Below are positions 984-62,644 of a DNA stretch of 64,000 nucleotides, one piece after another. The notes beneath the pieces were generated by a model that was not told the origin of the DNA, ran no database searches, and worked only from the letters and a program-made list of their open reading frames with translations. The first letter of the stretch is position 1. Each line of letters starts with the position of its first letter. The DNA comes from Leptogorgia sarmentosa (taxonomy: Eukaryota). Location of the stretch: positions 18,228,001 through 18,292,000 of the forward strand of contig OZ210885.1 in NCBI GenBank assembly GCA_964658305.1, given 5' to 3'. The position numbers were made by a program, and so were the translations under genes.

Positions 984-1124
984 TACCGAGACAACCCGTG
1001 GCCAGGGCGAAGCAAGCTTCAATCCCATGGCCGAGGTCCAAAAATCAGTTTAATATATGAGTTAGGACATTGCCTAACATATCAGATATTAAGCTGATAA
1101 GAACAGATACTACACTTGATCTTA
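984..1124 (-). pseudogene. U2: U2 snRNA fragment, nt 22 to about 162 (3' part of the gene split by Tx1 copy A1, truncated at stem-loop IV)
   Basis: Minus strand reads TAAGATCAAGTGTAGTATCTGTTCTTATCAGCTTAATATCTGAT...GATTTTTGG (Sm site)...GGGTTGTCTCGGTA and matches the copy at 49523-49674. Confidence 0.95.
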
Positions 1125-1548
1125 TTTTGTTTTGAACGACGACAGGCTTGTCGACTCCGACGGTGCAATGGAGCCTGGACCCAAACAAGTCGCCGCACCC
1201 AGGGGGGTCACTACAGGTGACGCGGATCGACAGGGGTGGTGAGCCCCTCCCCCGTGCCATGATGCAACCGTGAGTGGATTGCTTCAGGGATCCCTAATGA
1301 TGGTGAAATGGTCAGATGATGATGTTAAGCTAGACAATTACAACAAGAGCAGCAACCCCTACATCAAAACCTGTGCAACCCGCTCGGAACAAGTCCAAGC
1401 GAACCACAGGGCAAAAATTGGAACAAACAGACAACCCAATCCGATACAGGCAGTACAACCAATAAAGGCGACCGTCGAGACCCTAGATCACTACATAGAA
1501 CACAAAGAACGAAAAAGGGAAAAGAGGGAGGGAAGAGAGAAGGGGAAC

Positions 1549-4500
1549 TTAGGTAATAAAGTCCTGAGTAAACCGGATCCAATCCTGCTCAATGAGCGTT
1601 TGTATCAGCCCGTCAGCCAACCACTTGTGAACAAAACTGTCCCGAGGGCAGTGGCGCTTGTGCATGCACACCAGAAAGCGAAAGGTGGTCTTTGCTTTCT
1701 TCAGGGTGGTGGTAACATCTGGGGCAGTGTGGTTGAACCATTGGGCGTTGCGGCTTAGCCAAATGTTGTGTCGTAGCACACCCAGCAGGGCAGAAAAGAC
1801 AACGGGCACATGGATATTGGGAGAGAATCCAAATAAAATAGTATTCGCTGGTAGTGAAGGAGCATTCGGCCGAAATTTACGAAAAATTGACTGGAACCGG
1901 TCGAGGACCGATACCGAAAACGGGCAAGAGCAAACTCTCTTGCGCACCACAAAAGCACAGCGGGTCGACTCTCATGCCAAAACGGACCAGATGATTGGCC
2001 ATGGGTAAAATGCTGTGAAAAGACAGCCAACCAGTGTCTTGGACGGCCCGCACAAAGCGCCACAGGTGTAACGAGGCCCACGCAGCCTGCCATGGGACGT
2101 TAATGTCCCAGTCCCGATATTTCGCCACTGAGCGATGCTCAACAGCGGAAGAGCGCCGGAGCAGGGAATACCCTGTACGAGCTGTTAGCTCAGAGAGGGG
2201 AAGCAACTGTCCTGAAGGACGAGGGATGACCCAATCACTCTGCTCGTTCCTACCTTTCAGGAGGACCCACGCAGTAAACACACCCCGATAACAGGGTGGA
2301 AGTTTTTTAATCAAATATGCTGGCAGAGGATCACGAGTAAGAACGTGAGGTACCGACTGTCTAAACACGCTAGTAACAAGATGGGAAAAAAGGGATGCCC
2401 ACGGGTGGCTATGATGAATAAAAAACCAACCAAGCCATACGGCACGAAGGGACAAAAGTTTATTGTTGATGTCGATGACATTCAGGCCTCCTTCACTAAT
2501 GGGCTGGACGACTGATGTGCGAGCCATCCATTCACGCTTTTTTCCCCAAACAAAAGGAAAGACTATCTTGTTAACTTTAGTCACGACTACTTTTGGCATA
2601 TCAAAGGCAGTCGCCTGGTACCAGAACAGAGACAGACCAAGAGTATTTACGATCAGAGCTCTTCCCCGAAACGACAATTGGCGCTGTTTCCAGACACCCA
2701 ATTGCCGCTCCTTCCAGACACCCAATTGCCGCTCCAACTTCTCCACTAAGGCGTTCCAATCAGCTCCCTCTATATTTGCTATACGACAGCCCAACACGGT
2801 TATAGCGTCGCTAGACCAGTTCAGTTGTATTGGTAGGTCGGTCCGGCCCTTCCAGGACCCGAAAAGGAGACCATGACTTTTGTTAATATTGAGCTTCGCA
2901 CCGTAAGCCAGCTCGTACTGTTCAAAAAGTGAAAAGAGTGACCGCAGGGCCTGCTCAGAATGTACAATGATGGTTGTGTCATCCGCATATTGAAAAATTT
3001 TGACCGTCTCCCCATTTGGCAACTGGAAGCCGTCGACATTTAAATCTTTCTTGATGGCACACGAGATGGTTTCAGCCACAATAATGTATAATAAAGGGGA
3101 AAGAGGACAGCCCTGACGAACTCCCCGAGTGACACTAAAAGCGCCACTGGTGAACCCATTTACTAGAACATGTGAAAAGATGTTCGTATACAAGAGCTTA
3201 ACCCACCCACGAAAGGACAGACCAAAATTCATTTGCTCCAAGGCCCGCAGGATGAACCCCCAATCAACCCGATCGAAAGTCTTTTCTTGATCTAGTGATA
3301 TGATTGCACCTCCAGTATTATTATTATTACAATGGTTAACTAGATCCTGCAGGCCCTGACATTCAGACCTGAGAAGCGTCCAGGAACGCCACAGGCTTGG
3401 GATTCAGAAATGACAGAAGATAGTACTGTTTTTAGGCGATTTGTAAGTACCTTCGATAGTATTTTGTAGTCCGTGCATAGAAGGGAAATTGGTCGCCAAT
3501 TCTTGACATCTAGTCGATCATTTTTCTTGAATAGGAGAGAGATTAAACCAGTACGCTGGGAAAAAGAAAGAGCACCTCGTGCCAGGCAATTGTTGAAAAC
3601 TGCCACTAGATCAGGACCCAAAATGTCCCAAAAGGACTGATGGAACTCATAGGGTAGCCCATCTAGACCTGGAGATTTGTTACGCTTGAAAGAATTCAAT
3701 GCACGCTGGCACTCCTGTAGCGTGACCTCGCCTTCACAAAGCAGGGCTTCTTCTGCAGACAAGAATCGCTCCAAACTGTTTACGAAAAACGACTGATCCA
3801 GAGAAGATAGAATGGACGCAGAAAAAAGTTGCACATAAAAAATGCACCAAACTCGCAAAATCGCGGAGATAGATCTTACAATGGTGCCTTGTGCGTCTCG
3901 GATGCCAGTGAACAAACGCCTCGATGCTCGCACCTTCTCCTGTCTAAAGAAAAAGGCAGAGGAAGTTTCACCTTCCTCGGCCCACTGTTCCTTGCCCCGA
4001 ATGCATGCACCTTCTGCTGTGTAGTGGTGCTCGAGCTCCAATTTATCCTGTGCCTCCTTTATTAGGTGATTCACATCTTCACCGTCGGCAACTTGTTGAT
4101 GAAGATGTTCGAGGGTGGATTCTAGATTATGCATATTCGACCGCCTCGAACGAGCCTTGCCCTGAGAAAAATGACGAATGATTTCCTTCAAACGAGCCTT
4201 GCCTGCCTCCCACCAAATGCCCAGAGACGGAAAAGTAACTTTCTCAGACTGCCACGAGACCCAGAAGTTACGGACCTCCGTGCACAGAGTCTCTTCACGC
4301 AGCAAGGATGTATTGAATTTCCATGCACCAGGACCACTTTGCGGTAAAGATGGAAAGGCCGCGTGGAGGAAGACATAAGAGTGGTCCGAGCGGAAAAAAG
4401 GGAGAATGGTTACTTCCGAAACGTGTTCATGTAATGATGATGATATCCAAAACATGTCCAGTCGGGATGCCTGGGAGCCGTTGGCCCGGCGCCACGTATA

Positions 4501-5106
4501 ACCCCGCTTGTCTGGATGCGCTAGGCGCCAAGTATCGACCAGATCGCACCTATCAGTCAGTGAGGAACGAGAGGCAGGCCAGTTGTAAGCCCAAGGAGAG
4601 TCAGGATTACAACCCAATCGGTCTACATGCGGATCAGCTACCACATTGAAGTCTCCGCATAAAAGAGTGGAAAAAGAAGGGTCAATCATCTGATGTAGAG
4701 AGGAAAAAAAGTCCTCGCCAGCTTGCTTCTGATTTGGACCATATATATTTACAACTTGAGTTATGGACTCAAGGTCAACATGCTTGAAACGCACGACAAT
4801 AACCCGACCACTCGTGTCTCTGTTAATACTTTCCACGCGAAAACACGGCTTGAATAAAATCGCTACCCCCGCACTACGAGTAGTACCTGGGGAAGATTCA
4901 GCAAGATATTGTTGCAAATTATTGTGCTCGAGAGTCTCCGTCTGTAACCAAGAGAGGAATTCCTCTTCAGAGCGACTATGCATTTCTTGTAGAGCAATGA
5001 TGTCAGGTTTGGCACAATTTAGCCAGGAAAAAAGAGTTTGACGATTACGAGTATTGCATAACCCTTGAACGTTTAGGGTTATTCTGGTTACTTCTTGGTT
5101 AGCCAT
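1549..5106 (-). pseudogene. Family A copy 1 ORF2 (APE endonuclease, reverse transcriptase, C-terminal Zn finger), frameshifted
   Basis: ORFs 3340..5106 (LNVQGL, GDFN, SDH, KNWRPISLL), 1877..3241 (GVRQGCPLSP, QYADD) and 1549..1950 lie in different frames. Confidence 0.92.
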
Positions 5107-5175
5107 AATGAGTGTGTGAAAAGATGTACTGTATAAATGATATTACTATTATTATTCTATATAAACAAGGGAGAC

Positions 5176-5735
5176 TCAAAAGCTACCATCATCAGAAGTG
5201 ACACTGTCACTTGCAAAAAAGCGACGGAGAGCAAGAGTTTCTTCAGAAGCTTGATTTGCTTCTGGTCTGGAAAGATTCGAGGGGCTAGCTGCAGCAGAAG
5301 AGCTAGCACCAACCGGGGCAAAAGGAGTTAAGAGGGAGTCTGATAATTCATTTGCCATGTCTGAGAGTGAGTCATCAACAATTAGATCGATGTCTGACAT
5401 TCCCTCAATAGAAGGAGTGCCAACCATTAGAGAAGGGATATGTGGTCCCTCATCCTCCGGCAATGGAACATTCTCCGGTAATGGTCTCTCTTCGGAATGC
5501 TCAACCTCTGGTTGCATGGTCTTAGGGGGCTCTTCATCCGAAGATGCCTCTTCACTCTCCATGTGAGAGTTTTTGCGGAGAGGAGAACGTGAACGGTCCT
5601 TGTCTGCTGACTTAGAAGTCCGACGGCGCTTACAACGAGGCGGTGGGACAGGGGGGCGTTCTTTGGGCAGGGAACCACTTGCCTCTGATGTCTGGGTCTC
5701 ACTAGCTCCAGACGGAACAAGAGGCAAACCCGAAG
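5176..5735 (-). pseudogene. Family A copy 1 ORF1, C-terminal part
   Basis: Homologous to the ORF1 C-terminus of copy 4 (RSRSPLRKN...EETL...SDDGS); separated from its N-terminal part by the nested LINE. Confidence 0.85.
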
Positions 5736-5736
5736 A

Positions 5737-8700
5737 TAAAATACTTCGCAGCCATAAGCTGAATTGCATATTTTTACAAAGAAAGTTAGCTAAATGTGAT
5801 ATAGAATATAAAAAGTTTATAAGCCATTATGATGACATTCTATATAAATATATAATTTTATACACAGGATGTTTATTACTTTAATATACTATAAAATTTA
5901 AAATTATTAAAAATATAAAGTCATTTCAATAACATTAGGTAAAAGATTTGCGGCATGAAGCCACAAAAAAACTAGTTTGAAAACGATTAGTATTACATCT
6001 AGGAATTTCGAATTTCCTATCGTTTCTTAAATCATAAAAAGAAGTATGTGTAGGCAGCAGCAAACTTCGTAACTTATGATTTTCTTCAGCAACTACTGTT
6101 TGAAATAGACTAGTGCAAATATTTTCATGATGAACAGACAGTGACTCCAATCCACAACTAATTAAAGCGTCTTCATAATTAGTGTTAGGACAGATGATTC
6201 TAATAGCTCTTTTTTGTAATCTTTCCAGTTCGGAACGCAAGTATTTTGGCAATGAATAGTAAATGACAAGGATACCATAATCAATAACAGATCGAATACA
6301 TGTAACGTAAAATAGAACCAGATCATTCCGAGGGATACTGGCCCATTTGAGTTGAATCAGATAATAGATTCGTTTGGATACTTTTTTAACTACCTCTTCG
6401 ATATGTAAATTCCACGTCAGCTTTGAAGGACTTTACAACTCTAACACTTTTATTGTTAATAAGTATCGGGTTAAAATCACGAGGGACTTTTGAGAAGGAA
6501 ATACGGAGCTCCTTACATTTCTCTTCATTCAGCTTCATTTTATTGTTTTGGGACCATTGTGACATTTCATTAGCAATTGTCTGTGCTCTACTCTGTTGGT
6601 TTTTGTCAACTGTTTCCGATGCTGTCGTATCGTCCACGTATTTTCATAGGTCAGTATCAGTAATGGATAAATCATTTATCATGATTAAGAAAAGCCATGC
6701 ACCTAATATGGTGCCTTCAGGGACGCCCGAAGGTACTGCACCCCAATCTGAAAAACATCGTTGTGAAAGTTTGACTCTTTGGAATCTGTCGCTTAAGAAG
6801 TCAATAATCCAATTTATGACACTTCGTGGTAGATCTAGCTGAAGTAGCTTGTTGATCAAAATTCTATGATCGATTAGATCGAAAGCTTTTTGATAATCAA
6901 ATAAGATTATTCTAGTTGTAGAACCGGTACCGTCAAGCCCCGAGGTCCAGTTGTGCACCATACTAAGAAGAGCAAATATCGTCGATGATTTAGGAATTGG
7001 TCCGTACTGATTAGGATCGATTTTCTTCAAAACAGCGGGTTTCACATAATCTTTAACAACGAAATGCTCTGCGACCTTCGAAATATTAGGTGTTAATAAA
7101 ATGGGCCTAAGTTCTTTTTTCAGATCCTGTACCATTTTTACTTTTGGCAGCGGTGAAACATTCGCAAGTTTCCATATTGAAGGTAGGCGTTGTTGCTTGT
7201 AGGATGCATTTAGGAGTAGACTAATTGGGAGGGCAAGGATTACAGCATACTCACGCAAGAGCCAATTTGGCACTTCGTCAGGATCACCACTTTTACTAGG
7301 GTTGAGTTTTTGTAACTGTGACAAGACCCTTTCTTCCGAAACTTCTAGGAATTCTGTGTTTTCTTCTAAGTTAAGTTGTTCTAGCGGTGAAGATAATTGA
7401 TATTCTGATAAGGGCTCAAGAAAGGCTGTATTTATTCTGTTTGCTAATTCATGTTCTGATATATCTTCAAGACCAGCAATATTTATCGAATTTATTAGGG
7501 AAATATTCATTGATTTCATTCCTCCTAGGCGTTTGATTTCACTCCACCAAGCTTTAGGGTTTTCTTTCTCTTCACTGTGGACCTAGGTCATGTAGTATTT
7601 TGATTTGCACTCTTTTCTCTCACGATTGACAATATTTCGGTAATATTTAAAACTGTTGGATTTTGGACCGTAACTGAAAAAGGCTTCTTGTCTTTTTTTA
7701 ATGAATACTTTCAGTTTATCGGTCATCCAAGGAACATCTACGGAAATTTTTTTAATCCGTTTAATTGGCATGAGAAAGTCAAGACCAATAGCCACAATAT
7801 CATAGAACTGCTTCGCCATATCTTCGCAGCTTTGTGATTGAGCAAAGATTACAGGCCAATGAATTGAATGTAAAAATCTCCCCATGGCATCTTTCTTGCT
7901 CTGACGAAGATCTCGTTTGTATACAAATGTAGGTTTTGTTTTCTTCACAATGTGAGCGGGTGAAACTACAACTGTATTATGATCGGATAATCCAATTGGA
8001 GGAAGTATTTGCGGAGACTTGTAGAACTCGTGCATGTTAGTTAAAACAAGGTCAAGTATTGCTTCGCTTCGAGTTGGTGATTTAACAATTTGTTTCAATC
8101 GAAAATGCTTAATTATTTGATTCACATTAAGACGATTGAAATCCCCAGCAATGATAATACCGCAGCTGTAAAATTTTGCTTCAGTTTCACTTAATGTCTG
8201 AAATAAGTGGCTCTGCATACTGGTATCATCAGCACTAGGAGGATGATATAAGACGCCAGCTATAATTGAGGAAAATTCACGAGGAAGTCGTCTAGGTTTT
8301 ATATGGAGCCATAAGATCTCGTGTTCAGAACAACATGAAATTTCTGAAAGAATTTTGAGTTTCGTATCGCCGTCTCCGATGTAAATACAGATTCCGCCAT
8401 GGTTGTTTGTAGTTCTATCTTTGCGTATGACTGTAAATCCAGGTATGCTTACAACACTGTCTGTAATTGGGTCATAGAGCCAAGTTTCAGTTAAAAAGGA
8501 TACGTTTATCTCATTTTCCATCATAAATTCGCGAACTTCGTCTATTTTGGGGGCCAAAGATCTCACATTAGACACCATTAATTTTGGAATATAATTACTA
8601 ATCCTCTGTTTTAATGTAGTGGTATTCGGTTGATGGAATTCTGTAGTAAGGGGCTTACATGGCAATATACAATTATTTGGAAAGTCAACAATTTCGTTTA

Positions 8701-10231
8701 TGGGAATATTTATTAAATTACATTTCCCATGACAGTTCACCAATGTGGGGTTCGGTTCGGAGGATAAACTGGAATTTGCAATAATGGTTGTGGAGGGTGA
8801 GGTGGGGGAGGGGGATTGTGTGTTATTCGGGTTACAAGGTCTAAATACTTTTTCCATCCTGGGGGACGACTGTGATTCCTCGAATGTTGTAAAAAATGGT
8901 TTGGATTTTCTCTGTTGTAACTAAACATATTTTGTTTCCTACGCTTTCGGTTCTTACTTGCCTGCGATATTTGCCTGTCGGAACGATGGCTAATTCGCAC
9001 AGGGATCGCAAAAGACTCGTTTGAACTGGGTACGCCTGATTTATCCTGTTGATTAACTGCATTTCCCCCACCATTGCTCGATGATTTATTCCTGCCATTG
9101 CTCGATGATTTATTCCTGCCATGCGGCTGAGACTTTTTGTTGTAATCGTTATTGACTCGGCTTATTAGGTTGTGGTATGAGATCTTTTATACTTTGTCTA
9201 TTACGAGTTATTGCATTTACATCAGAATTAACATCCGACACCTTGTCTTCAAAGCATGACGGAGGGACGCCATGGCCAGATCTTTGTGTTGTTTCCTTGC
9301 ACAATAAGCTATCATTATAAATTTGTTCGGCTGACTTAATTGTGTTTTCTTTACCCTTTTCAATACAAACGCTATGGGTTGGCGATTTCCTTTCCTCTTC
9401 AAGTTCGACGATACGTGATCTTAAATTCAAATTGTCTGTGCGCAATTTGCATAACTCTTGTTTACTTGTTTCAATGATTTCGTCTTGTACGGAAATTCTT
9501 GTCGATAAATTTACTATTTGCGATTTAATCTCATTTTTAAATATTGAGAAACGTGTCTCCATTGAAATCAATTTGTCGTCCTCGCTTTGCTGCAATGGGC
9601 CAGAATTATTACTTATTACGTTCGTAAAATTGTTAGCAGGTTTAACAAGCGGCGAGTCGTTTATGTTTTGAAATGAAATGTCGATGAAGTCCTCAAGCTC
9701 CGTAAGAGTTGATGAATCGACAGCCGATATCGTGTCTTCTTTTGAGGTTGTGGCATTAGCAACATATTGCTCATTCAGACCCTCATCCAACGAATTGTTG
9801 TTATTATTTAAGGCATTCTCAGGCACCGTGTTTGAAATTACTGCCTCGGAACATAGACAGTACGCTGGCGAGCTTTCTTCATTCATACTAATGTCAATAA
9901 ATAGTTCTTTTAATTAGTCGCCCGTTTTGCTCTGAAAGGTTAACGTACCTCGCTCATAGTTCCAACTAAGAATCAAGTCAGTATTGGTGCTTGTAAATTT
10001 TTTATATCTGCCTCCAGGCGACGACCATGTGCCCGTTTGAACAATTACACATTTAATAAAAATTTTCAGCATTTCATAGCTGTCCGTCCATCTGATTCGC
10101 TTTCCGTTATAAGTAAAACATCCTACATCTTTATATCGGAGAAATTCCTCAACATCCCATTCATTTTGATTATTTTTAAGGGAGCTAACAGAGCCCATTT
10201 GAACATGACTGTCGGCCATTGTTATTTATTC
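5737..10231 (-). mobile_element. Nested CR1/L2-group LINE (Daphne/Crack-like), near full length, decayed
   Basis: ORF1 pieces 9914..10219 and 9149..9886 (coiled coil); APE 7583..8857 (LTETWL, AGDFN, LSDH); RT 6644..7519 and 6386..6637 (YVDD); C-terminus 5935..6252. AT-rich. Splits the host ORF1 cleanly when compared with 54690-54720. Confidence 0.85.
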
Positions 10232-10948
10232 TGGCGAACTGCCCGAACTTCCGGAGTTCTCGGCAGGCTCAGAGAGCACCGTGTCCAACAAATTGGTGAT
10301 GGTCTCCCGTACCTGCTCGTGCTCGTTCTCTTGGCCCACCATGGGCCGTACCTCACTACCAGATGTTTCATGGTTAGCCTGTGTTGACCCTACAACAGCA
10401 GGCCGAGATAGAGCGGGGCAAGCCGACTGATTGTGGCCTTCCTGTCCACACCCGAAACAAGGACGTTTTTGGACCTTATGATACACGAAGCACCAGTGGC
10501 CAGCAATTCGCATGCAAAAAGGAATGGGTTGTTTTATTTCCATTAGCACATGCCTGACCCCAGTATAGATATGAGAATACACCTCGGATGAGATCTTGCG
10601 AATCTCACCAAAGCCACTGAGGACTTTGGAAATTTCTTCATCCGGGACCCTGTAAGTCAGGCGGGTAACATTAACCCAGGTGCATTTGGATACCGGCCGG
10701 AATTCGACAGGGAGGCCCCGCACGGTTAAACCCGTATGTTCGGCAACCTCCATGTTCCGAGCTCCCTTAAAGGTCACGCGGAACCGACCAGGCGCCATCA
10801 TCACGACAGCCTCAAACACAGAAGTATAATCATCGACTTGCCTGCTGAACTCATCGATGACCTCCTTTACATTTATTCTGTGCGCCTCGATGCTGTCAGA
10901 AATGATGACATCGCAGGTGCGATTGACGTGAGGAATCATCCTCACCAC
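10232..10948 (-). pseudogene. Family A copy 1 ORF1, N-terminal part (RRM-like region plus CCHC knuckle)
   Basis: MIPHVNRTCDV...CFGCGQEGHNQSAC, homologous to ORFs 39694..40491 and 54408..55217. Confidence 0.88.
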
Positions 10949-10959
10949 ACTGGATTAGA

Positions 10960-11620
10960 TGCGAGAACCAAAGTCTCGAAAAAAAAAAAGAAAAGAAAAG
11001 AAAAAAGGCTTAGCCTAAATCGAGAACCAGAGTCTCGAAAAACAAAAAGAATAGAAAAGAAAGAGGCTTAGCCTAAATCGAGAACCAAAGTCTCGAAAGA
11101 CAAATTAATCGAATTCGAGAACCAAGGAGAAAAGGTTTAACCTAAATCGAGAACCGAAGTCTCGAAAAACAAAAAGAAAAGAAAAAGGCTTAACCTAGAT
11201 CGAGAATCAAAGTCTCGAAAAACAAAATAACCTGAATCGAAAACCAAAGTCTTGAAAAACAAAAAGAAAAGAAAAGAAAAAGGCTTAATCTAAGTCGAGG
11301 ACGAAAGTCTCGAAAAACAGATTAACCTAATTCGAGAACCAAAGTTTCGAAAAACAAAATAACCTAATTCGAGAACCAAAGTCTTGAAAAACAAAAAGAA
11401 AAGAAAAAGGCTTAACCTAGATCGAGAACCAAATTCTCGGAAAACAAATTAACCTAATACGAGAACCAAAGTCTCGAAAAACAAAATAACCTAATTCGAG
11501 AACCAATGTCTCGAAAAACAAATTAACCTAAGTCGAGAACCAAAGTCTCGAAAAACAACTTAACTTAACCAAGAACCAAGTCTCGATAACTAACTTAACT
11601 TAACCGAGAACCAAGTCTTG
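10960..11620. repeat. Family A 5' UTR array of CGAGA-ACCAA(A)G-TCTCG hairpin units with variable A-rich spacers
   Basis: Roughly 17-20 units visible; homologous arrays at 40504-41290 and 61804-62160. Confidence 0.9.
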
Positions 11621-11794
11621 AAACAGATAAGGAAAGGAAAAAGAAGAGAGGAACGAATCCCTCCAGAAAAGAAGAGAAGTGGAGCCTGCCTAGCGTTTCC
11701 CCCTAGAGGGCCTCGCAGTCAGGCACAGTCACGCGGTGTACCACCAAGGCCAAAGCCAAGGAGGCCTGAGCCGACCGACACAATCCAAAGGAAC

Positions 11795-11975
11795 AGACAG
11801 GACAGCACAGGGACGGACACCACTGGGAGACACCACAGCGCAGGTACGGACAGCACAGGAATGGACAGCACAGGAAAGGACAGCACAGGAAGACACCACA
11901 GCACAGGAACGGACCAGACAGCACAGGAATGGCCAAGACAGGACAGGACCACCAAACTGAACAGCACCACGGACC
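11795..11975. repeat. About 15-bp GACAGCACAGGA-type repeats in the family A 5' UTR
   Basis: Direct repeats visible; shorter versions at 41455-41550 and 62325-62360. Confidence 0.75.
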
Positions 11976-12039
11976 ATGGGAAGGATATCTTCTGCAGCAT
12001 AAACCAGACTTCAGTGAGAAGACCACCAACTGTCAAAGT

Positions 12040-12065
12040 TCTTAGCCAAAAGGCCGAGAAGTGAT
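12040..12065 (-). pseudogene. U2: U2 snRNA nt 1-26 (5' part of the gene split by A1)
   Basis: Minus strand ATCACTTCTCGGCCTTTTGGCTAAGA (one mismatch to canonical ATCGCTTC). Confidence 0.93.
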
Positions 12066-12222
12066 GCCTCCTTCGCCATTCCTCGCCATCTTTTAAGCGA
12101 GAAAAGCAAGGTGAAAAAATGCGGTCCTCCTTCGCCGCCATTAGCAGCCGCGGCCGCGAAATCGCAAGCGAACCGAGTCGCAAACGTTATGGCACGTGGC
12201 GATGATGACGCATACAATCAAT
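12066..12222 (-). promoter_or_regulatory. U2 upstream (promoter) flank
   Basis: Near-identical to 62382-62545 and partly to 41556-41665. Contains TCACCTTGCTTTTCTCGC near -49, a PSE candidate only. Confidence 0.7.
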
Positions 12223-52249: not shown

Positions 52250-55200
52250 GACGCTCTTTCGTATTTTTCAAAAAGAGAAAAAAGCGACTGCAGGGCCCGC
52301 TCGGAATGGACAATAACTGATGTGTTGTCGGCGTATTGAAAAATTTTTATGGTCTCACCATTGAACATTTGAAAACCATCAATATTGAGGTCCTTTTTTA
52401 TTGCACTGGAGATTGTCTCCGCCACAATGATATACAGTAATGGAGAAAGAGGACACCCTTGACGAACTCCACGAGTGATGGTAAAAGCATCGCTCACAAA
52501 ACCATTAACTAGGACGCGAGAAAAAATGTTAGTGTACAAGAGTTTGACCCATGCACAAAAGGATGGACCAAAATTCATCTTTTCTAAGGTGCGTAACATG
52601 AATCCCCAATCGACTCGATCAAAAGCCTTCTCTTGATCCAAAGAGATAATAGCTCCTCCAGTATTGTGGCGATTACAAAAGTTAACGACATCCTGTAACG
52701 TCCTGACATTCAGTCCGGAAAACCGGCCAGGAACACCACAAGCTTGGGATTCCGAGATAACGGAAGATAGTACTATTTTAAGGCGATTAGTAAGCACCTT
52801 AGATAAAATTTTATAATCGGTGCACAAGAGGGAAATGGGCCGCCAATTCTTGACGTCTAAACGATCATTTTTCTTAAAGAGAAGTGAGATTAATCCGGTT
52901 CTCTGAGAAAAAGAAAGAGCACCGCGTGCCAAGCAATCATTGTATACAGAAACTAAATCAGGTCCTAATGTGTCCCAAAAGGACTGGTAAAATTCGTATG
53001 GTAAGCCATCGAGACCCGGAGATTTGTTGTGATTAAAGGAATTCAAAGCTCGCTGACATTCAGATAATGTAACCTCTCCTTCACAAAGCTTAGCTTCTTC
53101 AGAAGAGAGAGATTTATCTAAACTGTTTATGAAAAAAGACTCATCCGAGGGAGATAAAAGAGATGCAGAAAAAAGCTGAACATAAAAAAGGCACCAAACT
53201 CGTAGAATGGCGGAAACAGATCTAACTATAGTACCATGTGCATCACGAATGCCAGTAAATAACCGGCGTGATGCTCTCGCTTTCTCCTGACGGAAAAAAA
53301 AGGCAGAAGAGGTTTCACCTTCCTCGGCCCACTGCTCTTTACTGCGAATGCGTGCGCCCTCCGCCGCATGTAGATGTTCCAGTTCAAGTTTTTCTTTGGT
53401 CTCTTTTATAAGGTGAGCTACGTCTTCGCCATTGGTTTCCCGCCGGTGAAGTTGTTCTAGAGTAGCTTCTAAGTTGTGTGTGGTTAACCGCCGTGACTTA
53501 GCCTTGCCACGAGAAAAATGTCGGATCTTATCTTTCAACCGAGCTTTGCCCGCATCCCACCAAACGGCCAAGGACGGAAAGGTCTCTTTTTCGGACCGCC
53601 ACGAAACCCAAAAAGAACGGACCTCTGCGCACAGACCTCTGCGCACAGATTTTCATCGTGCAACAGCGAGGTATTCAATTTCCATACCCCAGGACCTCGT
53701 TCAGGCAGAGTCGGAAAAGTCACTTGAAGAAAAACGTACGAGTGATCGGAACGAAAAAAAGGGAGGATAGACACCTCGGAGACATGTTCGTGCAGGGAAG
53801 AAGATATCCAAAACATATCCAATCTGGATGCTTGGGAACCATTGGCTCGACGCCATGTGTAAGCACGTTCATTTGGGTGGTGTAAACGCCACGTGTCAAC
53901 GAGATCACACCTATTAGTTAAGGGGGAAAGAGGGGCAGGCCAGTTATAGGCCCAGGGAGAATCTGGATTACACCCTAACCGGTCGACCTGTGGGTCAACG
54001 GCAACATTGAAATCCCCACACAAAATTGTGGGAAGGGCTGGATCGATCTTCTGGTGTAAGGAGGAAAAAAATTCTATGCCAGGGTTTTTTTGATTCGGAC
54101 CATATATATTAACGACCTGAAACACAGATTCACGGTTGATATGTTTAAAGCAGGCTACTATAAGTCTTGCTAAAAGCAACTATCCGATCCATCATCGGAA
54201 AGGGCACCGCTTTCTGGAAAAGGGCGCTGAGAAAAAAGAGTTTCTTCAGAAGCGACATTTGCTTCTGGTCGTAAAAGATTCAAGGGGCCAGCTGCAGTAG
54301 AGGAGCTAGCACCAGCCGGGGCGACAGGGGTTAAAAGGGAATCCGATAATTCGTTTCCAAGGTCCGAAATCGATCCATCAACAGTGAAATCCAAATCTGA
54401 CATACCTTCAATAGGAGGAGTGCCAATCGTTAAGGAGGGGAACATTCTCAGGAAGAGTAGAATGCTCAACCTCTGGATGGACAGTCGCAGGGGGCACTTC
54501 ACGCGAAGATGCATCATCACTCTCCACGTGGGTATTCTTGCGGAGAGGAGAACGTGAACGGTCCTTACCAGCAGATTTGGAGGACCGACGGCGCTTACGA
54601 CGAGGCGGTGGGGTAGGAGGGAGTTCTTTAGGCCGGGAACTACTTGCCTCTGGTGTCTGGGAGTCGCCAGCTCCTGATGGAGCAAGAGGCACATCTGAAG
54701 TAGGGGCGCTGCCCGAACTTCCGGATGTCGTGCGAGGCTCAGAGGACACCGAGTCCAGTAAATTGGCCATGGTTGCATGAACCTGCACATTCTCTTGGCC
54801 CTCCATGGGCCGCACCTCACTATTTGGAGGTTCATTTTGACCCTGTGTTGTCTCGCCACCAGCAGGCCGAGAATTAGCGGGGCAAGACGACCGATTGTGG
54901 CCTTCTTGGCCACAGCCAAAACAAAGGCGTTTCTGGCCTTTATGGTGAACGAAGCACCAATGGCCGGCGATGCGCATACAGAAAGGTATTGGTTGGCGGA
55001 TTTCCATTAATACATGTCTCACACCGGTGTATATGTGTGAGTAGACCTCAAACCAATTTTTTTTAATTTCACCGAAACCACTCAACGCTTTTGTGATTTC
55101 TGTGTCAGGCACGCCGTATGACAAGCGGGTAACGTTTACCCAGGTATATTTCGAAATGGGCCTGAATGTTACAGGGAGGCCTCGCACAAGCAAACCGGAG

Positions 55201-58200
55201 TGCTTGGCTGCCTCCATCTTCCGCGCACCCTTAAAGGTGACTCAGAATGGGCACGGGGCCATCATAACGATAGCCTCTAAAACGGAGGTGTAGTCAGTAA
55301 CTTGACTACGAAAGTCATCGATGACCTCCTTCACGTTGGCTCTATGAGCCTCTATTTGATCCGAGAGGATCACATCACAAGTGCGATTCACGTGAGGAAT
55401 CATCCTCACCAGAGGAGGTTGGACAGCAGACCGCAAAGCATCATGGGTAATGAGCTTCTGAATGCACGTGCGGCCTCATTTGTGTTTTGACTGCCGCGAA
55501 GTAAACATCTCTATGGCAGAATAATTTGGACGCCTTTGAATCTACAAATTGGAAAATAACCCGATATACTTCCGTTGTTGCGATTCTTTCGATGAATGCC
55601 GTTTTACTTACTCCAATTTCACCGTTTTTAAGTTGCGTGGCTTTCAATTGCGACAATTTCATTGACTTTCCGTGTATCGCCATTGTGAAAGTATATTAGT
55701 ATATTAGTATAAAGTATAAACCATATTTCAGGTACATTATGATTATAAACTGCAATGCATTCAAAACCAACTTGTTCTCTTGTCAAAATGTACAGTGTAC
55801 TTTAATATTAGTGTACAGATGTCTCTTTATTTTCAAATAATCTACTGGTTATACAATGCATATTCTCTGTATATTTAATTTGTCTAAGTATAATGAGCAA
55901 AGTTTTATTAATGACACTATCAAGTTACATTGCATAGCATGACAACATATGTGTTACAAATAAAATAATTATAAAATAACATATCTATTTTATGTTCTGA
56001 ATCATCATCATCATCCTTGAACCTCTGGGTGTTCCACTCCCTGCAAGAGGCTGCTCTGGTACTTGCCCTTGTCCTGGGGAGGGACCACATCTCAATTTGC
56101 CAAGGACAATTACAGGATATGCTGTTTACTAGATAGAAAATCGTTCATGTGAAGGTAGAAGAACAACAATATGCTAGTCCAATGCTGACATCCTCATCAC
56201 TCCACATAATAGCACCTACACATGTATAATACAAAAATATAATGAACCACTAACAATGGCCAGCTTGCATAGGCATGATGTGAAAGAATAATACAGTATG
56301 CACATATAGATATGAAAGGTCTACGCATTTGTGCCCATGGTTTCTTCCCAAATGTTGACCAGTTGGGAAATTATGAAGCCAAAATTAGCTACATACTGTT
56401 TATACATAAAATACTGGCATTCAATCAAAGATGATACGGTAACAGACTTGTTATTACACATGCACACGCATTAAATAAAAAAAAAACAGGCAAATAATGC
56501 CTGAATCTTCTAAGTATTCTTTTAAAATTAGCCTAGAACTGTGAGAAACAAGCTTTGGTGCGGCGATGTCGTCCCGAAGCATTGCACGCCATTTTGACAA
56601 ACGTTGAATTGCCTATGGTCAGTTTAGTGCGAAATATCTCAAAATCTGCCGGGGGATCTCGGGGATCTCTCCAGCAGATTTTAAGTTTAGGCATTTGTCT
56701 TGACTTTTTTGCAAAAATTACGAAAATCGAACCGTGGGAACTCCAGATTTTTTAATTTGAAATTTGTAAACAGAAACAGACTTCGGCCATTACGCCGAGA
56801 CGACATGGCCAACTTTAATGACCAAAATAATATTGAAAAATAGCATTTACCTGAGTAATTCTTGCATAGATCGCTAGCTCATTCATAATACTTCGGTCAC
56901 GCTTCGATTTTATGTGCAAAATTAGTATATATATGACGCTCTTTCGTATTTTTCAAAAAGAGAAAAAAGCGACTGCAGGGCCCGCTCGGAATGGACAATA
57001 ACTGATGTGTCGTCGGCGTATTGAAAAATTTTTATGGTCTCACCATTGAACATTTGAAAACCATCAATATTGAGGTCCTTTTTTATTGCACTGGAGATTG
57101 TCTCCGCCACAATGATATACAGTAATGGAGAAAGAGGACACCCTTGACGAACTCCACGAGTGATGGTAAAAGCATCGCTCACAAAACCATTAACTAGGAC
57201 GCGAGAAAAAATGTTAGTGTACAAGAGTTTGACCCATGCACAAAAGGATGGACCAAAATTCATCTTTTCTAAGGTGCGTAACATGAATCCCCAATCGACT
57301 CGATCAAAAGCCTTCTCTTGATCCAAAGAGATAATAGCTCCTCCAGTATTGTGGCGATTACAAAAGTTAACGACATCCTGTAACGTCCTGACATTCAGTC
57401 CGGAAAACCGGCCAGGAACACCACAAGCTTGGGATTCCGAGATAACGGAAGATAGTACTATTTTAAGGCGATTAGTAAGCACCTTAGATAAAATTTTATA
57501 ATCGGTGCACAAGAGGGAAATGGGCCGCCAATTCTTGACGTCTAAACGATCATTTTTCTTAAAGAGAAGTGAGATTAATCCGGTTCTCTGAGAAAAAGAA
57601 AGAGCACCGCGTGCCAAGCAATCATTGTATACAGAAACTAAATCAGGTCCTAATGTGTCCCAAAAGGACTGGTAAAATTCGTATGGTAAGCCATCGAGAC
57701 CCGGAGATTTGTTGTGATTAAAGGAATTCAAAGCTCGCTGACATTCAGATAATGTAACCTCTCCTTCACAAAGCTTAGCTTCTTCAGAAGAGAGAGATTT
57801 ATCTAAACTGTTTATGAAAAAAGACTCATCCGAGGGAGATAAAAGAGATGCAGAAAAAAGCTGAACATAAAAAAGGCACCAAACTCGTAGAATGGCGGAA
57901 ACAGATCTAACTATAGTACCATGTGCATCACGAATGCCAGTAAATAACCGGCGTGATGCTCTCGCTTTCTCCTGACGGAAAAAAAAGGCAGAAGAGGTTT
58001 CACCTTCCTCGGCCCACTGCTCTTTACTGCGAATGCGTGCGCCCTCCGCCGCATGTAGATGTTCCAGTTCAAGTTTTTCTTTGGTCTCTTTTATAAGGTG
58101 AGCTACGTCTTCGCCATTGGTTTCCCGCCGGTGAAGTTGTTCTAGAGTAGCTTCTAAGTTGTGTGTGGTTAACCGCCGTGACTTAGCCTTGCCACGAGAA

Positions 58201-61200
58201 AAATGTCGGATCTTATCTTTCAACCGAGCTTTGCCCGCATCCCACCAAACGGCCAAGGACGGAAAGGTCTCTTTTTCGGACCGCCACGAAACCCAAAAAG
58301 AACGGACCTCTGCGCACAGACCTCTGCGCACAGATTTTCATCGTGCAACAGCGAGGTATTCAATTTCCATACCCCAGGACCTCGTTCAGGCAGAGTCGGA
58401 AAAGTCACTTGAAGAAAAACGTACGAGTGATCGGAACGAAAAAAAGGGAGGATAGACACCTCGGAGACATGTTCGTGCAGGGAAGAAGATATCCAAAACA
58501 TATCCAATCTGGATGCTTGGGAACCATTGGCTCGACGCCATGTGTAAGCACGTTCATTTGGGTGGTGTAAACGCCACGTGTCAACGAGATCACACCTATT
58601 AGTTAAGGGGGAAAGAGGGGCAGGCCAGTTATAGGCCCAGGGAGAATCTGGATTACACCCTAACCGGTCGACCTGTGGGTCAACGGCAACATTGAAATCC
58701 CCACACAAAATTGTGGGAAGGGCTGGATCGATCTTCTGGTGTAAGGAGGAAAAAAATTCTATGCCAGGGTTTTTTTGATTCGGACCATATATATTAACGA
58801 CCTGAAACACAGATTCACGGTTGATATGTTTAAAGCAGGCTACTATAAGTCTTGCTAAAAGCAACTATCCGATCCATCATCGGAAAGGGCACCGCTTTCT
58901 GGAAAAGGGCGCTGAGAAAAAAGAGTTTCTTCAGAAGCGACATTTGCTTCTGGTCGTAAAAGATTCAAGGGGCCAGCTGCAGTAGAGGAGCTAGCACCAG
59001 CCGGGGCGACAGGGGTTAAAAGGGAATCCGATAATTCGTTTCCAAGGTCCGAAATCGATCCATCAACAGTGAAATCCAAATCTGACATACCTTCAATAGG
59101 AGGAGTGCCAATCGTTAAGGAGGGGAACATTCTCAGGAAGAGTAGAATGCTCAACCTCTGGATGGACAGTCGCAGGGGGCACTTCACGCGAAGATGCATC
59201 ATCACTCTCCACGTGGGTATTCTTGCGGAGAGGAGAACGTGAACGGTCCTTACCAGCAGATTTGGAGGACCGACGGCGCTTACGACGAGGCGGTGGGGTA
59301 GGAGGGAGTTCTTTAGGCCGGGAACTACTTGCCTCTGGTGTCTGGGAGTCGCCAGCTCCTGATGGAGCAAGAGGCACATCTGAAGTAGGGGCGCTGCCCG
59401 AACTTCCGGATGTCGTGCGAGGCTCAGAGGACACCGAGTCCAGTAAATTGGCCATGGTTGCATGAACCTGCACATTCTCTTGGCCCTCCATGGGCCGCAC
59501 CTCACTATTTGGAGGTTCATTTTGACCCTGTGTTGTCTCGCCACCAGCAGGCCGAGAATTAGCGGGGCAAGACGACCGATTGTGGCCTTCTTGGCCACAG
59601 CCAAAACAAAGGCGTTTCTGGCCTTTATGGTGAACGAAGCACCAATGGCCGGCGATGCGCATACAGAAAGGTATTGGTTGGCGGATTTCCATTAATACAT
59701 GTCTCACACCGGTGTATATGTGTGAGTAGACCTCAAACCAATTTTTTTTAATTTCACCGAAACCACTCAACGCTTTTGTGATTTCTGTGTCAGGCACGCC
59801 GTATGACAAGCGGGTAACGTTTACCCAGGTATATTTCGAAATGGGCCTGAATGTTACAGGGAGGCCTCGCACAAGCAAACCGGAGTGCTTGGCTGCCTCC
59901 ATCTTCCGCGCACCCTTAAAGGTGACTCAGAATGGGCACGGGGCCATCATAACGATAGCCTCTAAAACGGAGGTGTAGTCAGTAACTTGACTACGAAAGT
60001 CATCGATGACCTCCTTCACGTTGGCTCTATGAGCCTCTATTTGATCCGAGAGGATCACATCACAAGTGCGATTCACGTGAGGAATCATCCTCACCAGAGG
60101 AGGTTGGACAGCAGACCGCAAAGCATCATGGGTAATGAGCTTCTGAATGCACGTGCGGCCTCATTTGTGTTTTGACTGCCGCGAAGTAAACATCTCTATG
60201 GCAGAATAATTTGGACGCCTTTGAATCTACAAATTGGAAAATAACCCGATATACTTCCGTTGTTGCGATTCTTTCGATGAATGCCGTTTTACTTACTCCA
60301 ATTTCACCGTTTTTAAGTTGCGTGGCTTTCAATTGCGACAATTTCATTGACTTTCCGTGTATCGCCATTGTGAAAGTATATTAGTATATTAGTATAAAGT
60401 ATAAACCATATTTCAGGTACATTATGATTATAAACTGCAATGCATTCAAAACCAACTTGTTCTCTTGTCAAAATGTACAGTGTACTTTAATATTAGTGTA
60501 CAGATGTCTCTTTATTTTCAAATAATCTACTGGTTATACAATGCATATTCTCTGTATATTTAATTTGTCTAAGTATAATGAGCAAAGTTTTATTAATGAC
60601 ACTATCAAGTTACATTGCATAGCATGACAACATATGTGTTACAAATAAAATAATTATAAAATAACATATCTATTTTATGTTCTGAATCATCATCATCATC
60701 CTTGAACCTCTGGGTGTTCCACTCCCTGCAAGAGGCTGCTCTGGTACTTGCCCTTGTCCTGGGGAGGGACCACATCTCAATTTGCCAAGGACAATTACAG
60801 GATATGCTGTTTACTAGATAGAAAATCGTTCATGTGAAGGTAGAAGAACAACAATATGCTAGTCCAATGCTGACATCCTCATCACTCCACATAATAGCAC
60901 CTACACATGTATAATACAAAAATATAATGAACCACTAACAATGGCCAGCTTGCATAGGCATGATGTGAAAGAATAATACAGTATGCACATATAGATATGA
61001 AAGGTCTACGCATTTGTGCCCATGGTTTCTTCCCAAATGTTGACCAGTTGGGAAATTATGAAGCCAAAATTAGCTACATACTGTTTATACATAAAATACT
61101 GGCATTCAATCAAAGATGATACGGTAACAGACTTGTTATTACACATGCACACGCATTAAATAAAAAAAAAACAGGCAAATAATGCCTGAATCTTCTAAGT

Positions 61201-61619
61201 ATTCTTTTAAAATTAGCCTAGAACTGTGAGAAACAAGCTTTGGTGCGGCGATGTCGTCCCGAAGCATTGCACGCCATTTTGACAAACGTTGAATTGCCTA
61301 TGGTCAGTTTAGTGCGAAATATCTCAAAATCTGCCGGGGGATCTCGGGGATCTCTCCAGCAGATTTTAAGTTTAGGCATTTGTCTTGACTTTTTTGCAAA
61401 AATTACGAAAATCGAACCGTGGGAACTCCAGATTTTTTAATTTGAAATTTGTAAACAGAAACAGACTTCGGCCATTACGCCGAGACGACATGGCCAACTT
61501 TAATGACCAAAATAATATTGAAAAATAGCATTTACCTGAGTAATTCTTGCATAGATCGCTAGCTCATTCATAATACTTCGGTCACGCTTCGATTTTATGT
61601 GCAAAATTAGTATATATAT
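52250..61619. repeat. 4685-bp tandem duplication (52250-56934 and 56935-61619)
   Basis: All ORFs recur at an offset of 4685. The only difference noticed is YADN versus YADD (52326/57011). Confidence 0.95.
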
Positions 61620-61746
61620 GCATACTTTTTGAGTTTTTATGCGTCTAATGCAAATTAAAAGAACAAAAATTTTCGCGAATACGATGGAAAATTAGCGCGA
61701 TTTGATTGGTCGAGAAATTCACGTGACAGCTGTCCAACCTCCTCTG
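60095..61746. mobile_element. Non-autonomous DNA transposon, 18-bp TIR CAGAGGAGGTTGGACAGC, 9-bp TSD CATCCTCAC (truncated duplicate at 55410-56934)
   Basis: TSD at 60086-60094 and 61747-61755; the empty site is visible in copy A1 near 10937. Confidence 0.85.
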
Positions 61747-61803
61747 CATCCTCACCACACGATATTACTATACGATAATTATGTTTTATTTACTAAATTA
61801 CAT

Positions 61804-62160
61804 ACGAGAACTAAAGTCTCGCAAAAAAGTAAAGAGAAAAAAGGAGAAAAAGGGCTTAAGACGAGAACCAGGTCTCGCGAACTAAATTAGACGAGAACCA
61901 AGTCTCGAAAATACACTAAACCGAGAACGAAGTCTCGAGAACTAAATTAAACGAGAACCAAGTCTCGAAAAAACACTAATTTGAAAACCAAGTCACGAAA
62001 AAGGGGGACGAGAACCAAGTCTCGACTAACCAAGGTGACTTAAAACGAGAACCAAGTCTCGAAAACTACCTAAACCGAGAACCGAGTCTCGAACACACAC
62101 TTAAACTAAACCGAGAACCGAGTCTCGAAAACTAACTAAAGCGAGAACCTAGTCTCGAAA
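61804..62160. repeat. Family A 5' UTR hairpin array
   Basis: About 11 CGAGAACCAAGTCTCG units. Confidence 0.88.
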
Positions 62161-62362
62161 AGGACGGAAAGCAGAGAAGAGGAACGAATCCCTCTAAAAA
62201 GAAAGGGAAAAGGAGCCTATCCTAACGATTCCCCCTAGAGGGCCTCGCAGAAAGGCACAGCCACGCGGTGTACCACCAAGGCGGAAGCCAAGGAGGCCTG
62301 AACCGACCGACACGAACCAAAGGAACGGACTGGACAGCACAGGGACGGACACCACAGGAAGA

Positions 62363-62381
62363 CAAAAGGCCGAGAAGCGAT
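62363..62381 (-). pseudogene. U2: U2 snRNA nt 1-19
   Basis: ATCGCTTCTCGGCCTTTTG. Confidence 0.92.
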
Positions 62382-62644
62382 GCCTTCTTCGCCGTTCCAA
62401 GCCATTTTTTAAGCGAGAAAAGCAAGGTGAAAAAATGCGGTCCTCCTTCACGCCGCAATCAGCAGCCGCGGCGGCTGCGAAATTGCAAGCAAAACGAGCC
62501 GCAAACGTTGTGGCACACGGTGATGATGACGGGTACAATCAATCGTTTGTGCGCTGCTAATTAATTCGGCTGCACGGGCGAAACTTCTCGCGACGCACTC
62601 GTGTTCTCCACGAATTTCTGGCGATTTTTTGGCAGGCGCACGTG
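62382..62644 (-). promoter_or_regulatory. U2 upstream (promoter) flank
   Basis: Third copy of the flank, directly upstream of U2 +1. Confidence 0.75.

What the first reader, a model, noticed from the sequence alone, without database searches (positions are those of the whole stretch)
984..62644. A U2-U1 tandem array partitioned among several site-specific retrotransposons
Seen: about three array units (U2 flank, U2, ~450-bp spacer, U1, spacer) are reconstructable, and all U2 copies are broken. Three defined sites are used: U2 nt 21/22 (Tx1 A, C, D), U2 nt 38/39 (Utopia-type) and U1 nt 3-13 (Tx1 B). All these elements are co-oriented with the snRNA genes. Known: Keno (Tx1) and Utopia target U2, and R1/R2 share rDNA in a comparable way. 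Inference: a multi-family niche where elements may use snRNA promoters, with dead units then collecting non-specific transposons.
Basis: partly seen in the sequence, partly recalled or inferred. Interest (0 to 1): 0.75.

Follow-up and report, generated by a model that had tools for sequence, protein, structure and literature searches.

The report
Retrotransposons partition U1–U2 snRNA gene array
Three units of a tandem array of U1 and U2 splicing-RNA genes, likely from a coral-type animal, are split by several unrelated jumping-gene families at fixed bases; two of these landing sites were not found in the papers searched, and the elements likely borrow the small-RNA promoters.

Summary
Observation confirmed, with corrections. 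Three U2–U1 units lie on the minus strand; all three U2 genes and one of two U1 genes are interrupted. Three Tx1 copies of two diverged lineages end at U2 nt 22 (21/22 to 24/25, ambiguous); a fourth family starts after nt 27. They are not Keno, whose site is 38/39, and the RT tree rejects grouping them with Keno-like elements (p-AU 0.018). One Tx1 copy sits in U1 with nt 3–17 duplicated (one mismatch). Related Tx1 in metagenome contigs join U1 nt 3 in 8 of 9 visible 3' ends, and one joins U5. Only one Utopia-like RLE remnant is present, at U2 38/39. Public contigs support the junctions and the empty U1 site, and suggest most array units are uninserted. New here: these Tx1 3' ends carry a C-G-closed hairpin with AUUGCAC, the U1A/SNF-binding loop (16 of 17 ends; 0 of 8 Keno-like ends). 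Promoter use and U1A binding are inferred, not shown. The scan has noted U1-targeting Tx1 on other DNA. Repbase was not checked. Verdict: new variant of a known kind.

The parts
62363..62644 (-). Unit 1 U2 5' flank (TATA-like word near -30) and U2 nt1-19
50340..62362 (-). Tx1 element D (slightly 5'-truncated; ORF1, APE, RT, zf-RVT broken); 3' end joins U2 nt22; holds a 1.65-kb TIR element (60095-61746, 9-bp TSD) and a 4685-bp tandem duplication (52250-56934 / 56935-61619)
50323..50339 (-). U2 nt22-38 left between Tx1 D and the RLE element
49675..50322 (-). 5'-truncated RLE-type (Utopia-like) element at U2 38/39, no TSD
49520..49674 (-). U2 nt39-end
49067..49519 (-). U2-to-U1 spacer (453 bp) with U1 promoter region
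48903..49066 (-). Intact U1 snRNA gene
   Evidence: 141.5 bits
41826..48509 (-). BEL/Pao LTR retrotransposon in the U1-to-U2 spacer; LTRs 97.7% alike; 5-bp TSD
41553..41825 (-). Unit 2 U2 5' flank; the last ~70 bp and U2 nt1-21 are missing
37866..41552 (-). Tx1 element C, 5' half only (about 81% identical to D), fused to E
32735..37855 (-). Tx1 element E (end of ORF1, APE, RT, zf-RVT); 3' end joins U2 nt22
32729..32734 (-). U2 nt22-27 between tandem elements E and F
25730..32728 (-). Tx1 element F (5' end after U2 nt27; 3' end deleted); holds an antisense CR1/L2-type RT fragment (ORF 30483-31970, + strand)
25103..25729 (-). Remnant X: unassigned ORF piece plus a 3' end that shares its terminal ~20 nt with the RLE element, joined to U2 nt39
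24948..25102 (-). U2 nt39-end
24495..24947 (-). U2-to-U1 spacer (92% identical to unit 1) and U1 nt1-17 (one mismatch at nt14)
12277..24494 (-). Tx1 element B in U1, full length but broken; 5' hairpin overlapping U1 nt7-17; holds a 6.6-kb DNA transposon (about 14781-21376, 255-bp TIRs; Academ-like by recalled features)
12223..12276 (-). U1 nt3-56, then a deletion into the next U2 flank
12040..12222 (-). Unit 3 U2 5' flank and U2 nt1-26
1125..12039 (-). Tx1 element A, full length but broken; U2 nt22-26 duplicated; holds a co-oriented L2-type insertion (about 5750-10230)
984..1124 (-). U2 nt22-162, then a probable deletion junction into a further Tx1 (ORF1/APE, 983-1)
1153..1175 (-). AUUGCAC hairpin in the 3' UTR of A (motif starts at 1169); equivalents at 12322 (B), 32792 (E), 50384 (D)

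Best explanation
This is a decayed, heavily inserted stretch of a U2–U1 snRNA tandem array in which three retrotransposon lineages sit at three fixed sites, likely because each endonuclease nicks its own snRNA sequence, and the elements are likely transcribed from the snRNA promoter left upstream. Shown: Tx1 (APE) families A, D and E end at U2 nt22, and A and F begin after U2 nt26-27 (5-6 bp duplication). Tx1 B ends at U1 nt3 and begins after U1 nt13-17. An RLE element ends at U2 nt39. A, D, E, F and B belong to one Tx1 clade that also holds U1-, U5- and non-specific relatives and excludes the Keno-like elements. Inferred: target-primed reverse transcription at these sites; initiation at the intact promoter, giving an RNA with a short U1 or U2 head; tolerance by the host because most units are uninserted; tandem and nested insertion because each insertion leaves part of a target; later deletions and non-specific transposons in the silenced units. 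The 3' AUUGCAC hairpin, found in place of a poly(A) signal, is predicted to bind the host U1A/U2B''(SNF)-type protein and to serve 3'-end protection or RNP handling rather than targeting.
For: Junctions. Domains. Tree: A/D/E/F clade 99/97; joined with B, the U1-core and sister clades at 97/85; Keno-like rows outside (36 rows); p-AU 0.018 against one clade with the Keno-like rows. U1 site elsewhere: of 22 U1-core loci, 9 3' ends are visible and 8 join U1 nt3 (7 of 8 distinct); 8 loci start at the U1 5' end; duplications run from nt3 to nt13-19. L002 shows the same U2-then-U1 order. Public contigs: empty U1 with 11 shared letters at depth 528 in X4, where single-copy contigs are ~5-6; one contig joining a Tx1 tail to U2 nt22-38 carries 3076 of 3145 depth at 50355-50365 in X1; further 3' ends join U2 nt39 in X1, X4 and X5. 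Co-location: 9 contig lengths are shared between 25 (U2-site clade) and 39 (B clade) large contigs, and 5 of 8 RLE contigs share a length with a Tx1 clade (length as a proxy only). Hairpin: 16 of 17 terminal AUUGCAC are closed by a C-G stem of 4 bp or more with varied stem letters, against 2 of 35 other occurrences; none in 8 Keno-like or 2 RLE-type ends; U1A contacts AUUGCAC plus the closing C-G pair (PMC2203988 passages).
Against: No locus of B's own clade (0 of 80) and only one partial, endless locus of the A/D/E/F clade (L076) was retrieved, so B's family specificity rests on one copy plus sister clades. In the sister clade 5 of 7 visible 3' ends have no snRNA flank, and L024 in the U1 core is off target. 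In X5 one contig leaves U2 after nt35, and in X4 two contigs leave it after about nt47, into unidentified sequence; 13 loose ends were not shown. C and D have 5' target deletions, not duplications, and C has lost the proximal promoter region. The hairpin also occurs in off-target relatives; 3 ends carry variant motifs, including a G4-to-A change in L041 that would weaken binding; the stem test scored 0 of 6 real snRNA loops, so it tests shape, not binding; the 17 ends are related and were picked by eye. The AU test used LG+G4 without the mixture model, and the group was named after an earlier tree.
Confidence: 0.7

Rival explanations
1. A, D, E and F nick U2 at the Keno/Utopia site (38/39) and regenerate U2 nt22-38 from read-through or carried RNA, so 21/22 is an element boundary, not a cut site.
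For: Keno-like metagenome elements with 3' flank at nt38/39 have 5' junctions at U2 nt21-26, like A. The deep X1 contig ends exactly at nt38. A seamless read-through junction cannot be told from sequence.
Against: E is followed by only nt22-27. A and F both give 5-6 bp duplications starting at nt22. The clade is separate from the Keno-like rows. Sister lineages join U1 and U5 without a carried segment.
Confidence: 0.15
2. Targeting is mainly positional: this Tx1 clade is recruited to the first ~25 bp behind active Pol II snRNA promoters (U1, U2, U5), for example through snRNP or promoter proteins, and local sequence only fixes the exact base.
For: One clade uses U1 nt3, U2 nt22 and U5 near nt10, which share little sequence. 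All carry an snRNA-like AUUGCAC hairpin. Earlier unchecked notes of this scan suggest the same for other genomes.
Against: Each sub-clade keeps one exact base in one gene across hosts. Hairpin-bearing sisters land outside snRNA genes in 5 of 7 cases. Target choice of Tx1 is attributed to the endonuclease (PMC4494074 introduction).
Confidence: 0.12
3. The stretch is partly an assembly collapse or a product of recombination among array copies, so the number of independent insertions is overstated.
For: A 4685-bp duplication with 1 mismatch; deletion-type junctions at 984, 12223, 25730 and 37866; no listed contig spans either laid stretch.
Against: The families are 50-86% alike in RT, so they are not collapsed copies. 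Contigs of a second study hold the empty U1 site and reach across the nested RLE junction (30 letters on the short side, one under the tool's bridging rule).
Confidence: 0.05

Closest known systems
Keno (Tx1 clade, U2-specific; Kojima and Fujiwara 2004, not held; seen through PMC4640811 parts 1-3 of 5 and PMC4494074 parts 1-4 of 5)
   Same: APE-RT Tx1 elements in U2 genes, co-oriented; Keno is known from cnidarians (hydra).
   Different: Keno's 3' flank is U2 nt39; here it is nt22. The RT tree separates the two. Keno-like ends fetched here are AT-rich with an A tail, mostly behind an AATAAA-type word, and have no AUUGCAC hairpin.
Utopia (NeSL clade, RLE; PMC4640811, parts 1-3 and S1 Table read)
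   Same: RLE C-terminus, 3' flank U2 nt39, no TSD, low copy, several families at one site; 45% identical to a Pristionchus pacificus protein, a species that carries Utopia.
   Different: S1 Table lists no cnidarian. Only a 117-aa fragment is present, so the RT was not placed. It is nested downstream of a Tx1 in the same U2 gene.
Dada-U1 DNA transposons (PMC8869645 passages; PMC3706591 search listing only)
   Same: Site-specific insertion in U1 genes.
   Different: Dada are DDE DNA transposons with 6-7 bp TSD; B is a non-LTR retrotransposon with an 11-15 bp duplication.
Crocodilian Tx1-Mar with U1/U2 heads, and a U5-targeting Tx1 named only in the Fig. 3 legend (PMC4494074)
   Same: Tx1 elements with snRNA sequence at the 5' end; a U5 target is known, as in L041 here.
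   Different: Tx1-Mar heads arise by template switching at non-snRNA loci; here the U1 piece follows the real U1 promoter and U1 resumes downstream. The figure and supplements were not visible, so a known relative of this clade cannot be excluded.
R1/R2 in rDNA (R2 co-transcription as cited in PMC4494074; partitioning by R1 and R2 recalled)
   Same: An APE-type and an RLE-type element share one tandem RNA-gene array at nearby fixed sites.
   Different: Pol II snRNA array with at least three lineages and two genes; no ribozyme detected.
Coral 5S-U1-U2 tandem arrays (PMC8167085, passages read)
   Same: Tandem linkage of U1 and U2 in a cnidarian.
   Different: No 5S gene in this unit; the word 'retrotransposon' does not occur in that paper's main text.

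Membership tests
Tx1 clade | ORF1 with CCHC knuckle; ORF2 with APE, RT and C-terminal zf-RVT | tested here: met
   Pfam hits in A-F
Tx1 clade | RT groups with named Tx1 proteins | tested here: inconclusive
   55% identity to a protein named 'Transposon TX1' of Stylophora, which lies in the same clade; no Repbase reference Tx1 was available
Keno | APE-type Tx1 element in U2 | tested here: met
Keno | 3' flank starts at U2 nt39 | tested here: not met
   A, D and E are followed by nt22
Keno | RT monophyly with elements using the 38/39 site | tested here: not met
   p-AU 0.018; comparators are Keno-like metagenome loci identified by their flank, not named Keno sequences
Utopia | Restriction-like endonuclease at the C-terminus | tested here: met
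   PD..D motif; hits to R2-group polyproteins, 30 of 179 candidates
Utopia | 3' flank starts at U2 nt39 | tested here: met
   49675/49674
Utopia | RT phylogeny inside Utopia/NeSL; N-terminal zinc fingers | not tested
   The RT is absent from the truncated copy; longer homologs (P0308-P0325) were fetched, but no named Utopia protein was at hand for a tree
U1A/SNF binding site | AUUGCAC in a loop closed by a C-G pair | tested here: met
   16 of 17 terminal occurrences; definition from PMC2203988 and PMC5992148 passages
U1A/SNF binding site | Protein binds the RNA | not testable with these tools
   needs a binding assay or CLIP

The most novel reading that the evidence does not exclude
A cnidarian Tx1 superclade lives as an snRNA mimic. 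Sub-clades have divided the 5' ends of Pol II snRNA genes (U1 nt3, U2 nt22, U5 near nt10), start at the snRNA promoter with a capped U1 or U2 head, and end without a poly(A) signal in a hairpin that copies the U1A/U2B'' binding loop, so that a host snRNP protein handles the retrotransposon RNA. Together with Keno-like and Utopia-like families this makes four or more lineages sharing one small array.
Probability: 0.3. Interest if true: 0.8.

Novelty: new variant of a known kind. Interest (0 to 1): 0.62.

Why it matters
The 2015 Utopia paper lists only Keno and Utopia (U2) and Dada (U1, U6) as snRNA-targeting transposons. A Tx1 clade whose branches switched among U1, U2 and U5 sites, with intact ORF2 relatives on record (for example P0122, 1181 aa, 89% to B's RT), gives a natural series for asking how APE endonucleases change sequence specificity and how promoterless site-specific elements are expressed. 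It also adds candidate site-specific insertion enzymes for conserved multicopy targets. If the 3' hairpin binds U1A/SNF, it would be a case of a retrotransposon RNA recruiting a spliceosomal protein; this was not found in the search made.

Tried and rejected
1. Element 5' ends pairing back on the U1 head: not above shuffles in any of 8 heads (fraction of shuffles as high 0.12-0.84); rejected as a general feature, although B has a perfect 13-bp hairpin. 2. Reading 30065-25103 as Utopia: rejected, it is Tx1. 3. Whole-genome tally: no genome is held. 4. Expression: no RNA holder listed; this is no evidence either way. 5. Junction pattern in prokaryote genome contigs: 0 matches; U2-clade alignment in viral contigs: 146 pattern hits, none confirmed; both are uninformative collections. 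The same pattern in viral contigs did not complete. 6. An intact U2 gene of the host species was not shown directly among the listed joints (31 joints not shown); its presence is inferred from depth. 7. Ribozyme or other Rfam family in the elements: none at E up to 1. 8. Literature: searches found no U1-specific non-LTR element, no U2 21/22 site and no AUUGCAC hairpin in a LINE (listings and abstract starts only, except the papers named). 9. No structure prediction or complex job was run. 10. An earlier count gave U2 nt22-38 as 50345-50329 and 'nt22-~44'; the recount is 50339-50323, and therefore cut D's end 6 nt early (true motif distance 45 nt).


Full report
Observation. Rfam places three U2 pieces, one intact U1 and one U1 fragment on the minus strand. 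Motif searches add U2 5' ends at 62381 and 12065 and a U1 5' end at 24511. Self-comparison and reading of the junctions give three array units of about 1.55 kb each: U2, a spacer of about 450 bp, U1, and a spacer of about 740 bp. The two U2-to-U1 spacers are 92% identical. All 3 U2 genes and 1 of 2 U1 genes are interrupted. The host is likely an anthozoan: the named close homologs are from Paramuricea clavata and Stylophora pistillata. Tandem U1-U2 arrays are known in corals (PMC8167085, passages).

Elements. Pfam and tblastn show six Tx1-type elements (A-F) and part of a seventh at the window start. A, D and E end in a short A run followed by U2 nt22. Because TAA fits both sides, the boundary lies between 21/22 and 24/25. 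A starts after U2 nt26 and F after nt27, giving duplications of 5-6 bp. D starts after nt19. C has lost the U2 start and is fused to E. B starts after U1 nt13, or after nt17 with one mismatch, and ends before U1 nt3. At U2 38/39 there is a 648-bp 5'-truncated element with an RLE C-terminus and a second remnant that shares only its terminal motif. The long element upstream of that second junction is Tx1 F, not Utopia. Non-specific passengers are a BEL/Pao element in a spacer, a DNA transposon in B, a TIR element in D, an L2-type element in A and an antisense CR1/L2 fragment in F.

Support from public contigs. Four runs were laid on 11950-26000 and on 49600-50480; X1 may be the source sample, X4 and X5 come from another study. 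Single-copy contigs have depth about 65-95 in X1 and 5-6 in X4. The array unit has about 10,000-17,000 in X1 and about 500 in X4, and B's main contigs about 900-1000 in X1. A joint that skips B, with 11 letters fitting either side, has depth 528 in X4: this is the empty U1. A joint that skips the DNA transposon in B has depth 406 in X1. One 126-nt contig joining a Tx1 tail to U2 nt22-38 has depth 3076 of 3145 at that place in X1, and a similar one 31.8 of 37 in X4. Other 3' ends join U2 nt39 in X1, X4 and X5. Depth is only a rough guide, but it suggests that most units are uninserted and that this window is a decayed zone. Against: three contigs in X4 and X5 leave U2 after nt35 or about nt47 into unknown sequence, 13 loose ends and 484 were not shown, and no listed contig spans either stretch.

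Relatives. A metagenome scan with a B-clade alignment kept the best 80 of 328 confirmed loci. None fell in B's own clade and one partial locus in the A/D/E/F clade. Of 22 loci in the neighbouring U1-core clade, 9 3' ends are visible; 8 join U1 nt3 (7 of 8 distinct, as L028 and L029 are one element) and L024 is off target. Eight loci begin at the U1 5' end; in the loci compared, the match to U1 runs from nt3 to nt13-19. Of 18 sister-clade loci, 7 3' ends are visible: one at U1 nt3, one near the U5 5' end, five at no snRNA; one more has a U1 5' junction. Six loci have the Keno-type flank at U2 nt38/39 and two near nt35. In a 36-row maximum-likelihood tree chosen from 288 rows plus two outgroups from the window, A/D/E/F (99/97), B (100/98), the U1 core and the sister clade form one group (97/85) that excludes the Keno-like rows. 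Forcing A/D/E/F together with the Keno-like rows is rejected at p-AU 0.018 (no mixture model, group named after an earlier tree). As a proxy for co-location in other assemblies, 9 contig lengths are shared between the U2-site clade (25 large contigs) and the B clade (39), and 5 of 8 RLE contigs share a length with one of them.

A shared 3' signal. A, B, D, E and their relatives have AUUGCAC 40-58 nt before the 3' end. In 16 of 17 such ends it follows a C that closes a stem of 4-8 bp, against 2 of 35 other non-snRNA occurrences. Stem letters differ between families while pairing is kept, and the motif sits either in a 10-11 nt loop or beside an inner hairpin. U1A contacts AUUGCAC and the closing C-G pair, in a hairpin or an internal loop (PMC2203988, passages), and SNF binds more tightly with a C-G closing pair (PMC5992148, passages). 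The motif is absent from the last 110 nt of 8 Keno-like and 2 RLE-type ends. Limits: the ends are related and were chosen by eye; three more ends have one-letter variants; the stem test scored 0 of 6 true snRNA loops; off-target relatives keep the hairpin, so it does not set the target. A second motif near the ORF2 stop occurs 20 times on the element strand and never on the reverse strand; it is unexplained.

Mechanism. Most likely each lineage's endonuclease recognises its own snRNA sequence and primes reverse transcription there (established for the class; inferred here). Insertion just behind the start leaves the promoter upstream, which would give a capped RNA with a short U1 or U2 head (inferred; no RNA data). 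Each insertion leaves part of a target, which allows tandem (E-F) and nested (D, then RLE) insertions (junctions shown, order inferred). Rivals are a nick at 38/39 with nt22-38 copied from the RNA, positional targeting behind active promoters, and assembly or recombination effects. Pairing of element 5' ends with the U1 head was tested and not supported.

Comparison and novelty. Keno and Utopia both have U2 nt39 as 3' flank, and in 2015 only Keno, Utopia, Dada-U1 and Dada-U6 were listed as snRNA-targeting (PMC4640811, parts 1-3 of 5). PMC4494074 (parts 1-4 of 5) names a U5 target in a figure legend, so part of this clade may be in Repbase. The RLE element fits Utopia on site and endonuclease, and no cnidarian is listed in its S1 Table. 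The Tx1 sites at U2 21/22 and U1 2/3 and the AUUGCAC hairpin were not found; Kojima and Fujiwara 2004, Repbase and the SINEU supplements were not seen. Earlier unchecked notes of this scan describe U1-targeting Tx1-type elements in other genomes; none holds the word AUUGCAC, and none matched E by sequence. The labels Academ-like and the R1/R2 partition are recalled, not from a call.

Verdict. Real, and a new variant of a known kind: site-specific LINEs in snRNA arrays are known, but two of the three sites and the 3' snRNP-protein-site mimic appear undescribed. Interest 0.62.

Noticed in passing
window 52250-61619: 4685-bp tandem duplication inside Tx1 D with a single mismatch; a very recent duplication or an assembly artefact.
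   Followed up: partly
window 1473, 12578, 25778, 33254, 50720, 50852 (minus strand); L016, L018, L031, L041, L060, L080: A conserved 23-nt motif shortly after the ORF2 stop of these Tx1 elements (20 matches on the element strand, 0 on the reverse), duplicated in D and repeated 8 times in L060; function unexplained.
   Followed up: partly
L006, L007, L027, L028, L031, L080 3' UTRs: A tRNA T-arm-like hairpin about 100-150 nt before the 3' end, seen by eye.
   Followed up: no
L033, L037, L039, L043, L044, L049, L070 5' ends: Keno-like elements start after U2 nt21-26, and several continue with a diverged U2-like stretch, although the 3' flank, where visible, is nt38/39; this suggests an inherited U2 head or a regular target deletion.
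   Followed up: no
L041:5238-5355: A sister-clade Tx1 joined to a U5 gene near its 5' end.
   Followed up: partly
L071:5837, L079:5831, L050, L052: Further Tx1 lineages with a 3' flank near U2 nt35 and 5' junctions near U2 nt50; a possible additional U2 site.
   Followed up: no
L027:3609 and 9479; L060:6085: Tandem Tx1 insertions separated by U1 nt3-13/15, the U1 counterpart of the E-F tandem.
   Followed up: partly
window 24475-24505: Perfect 13-bp hairpin at B's 5' end whose partner strand matches the variant U1 nt14, so the U1 head may be inherited with the element.
   Followed up: partly
window 25103-25729: Remnant X encodes an unassigned ORF piece with a CxxC..H motif but ends like the RLE element at U2 nt39; related ends occur in X1, X4 and X5.
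   Followed up: partly
window about 49097 and 62411: Both U1 and U2 upstream regions have a TATA-like word near -30; a CCACAAG word near -60 of U1 recurs upstream of U1 in L001 and L002.
   Followed up: no
window 62771-63054: 24-bp tandem repeat (12 copies) just outside the first array unit.
   Followed up: no
L006:6939-7057; L026:3666-5186: A 5S rRNA gene lies downstream of U1 in L006; two U4 genes lie 1.4 kb or more downstream of a non-snRNA-flanked Tx1 in L026.
   Followed up: no
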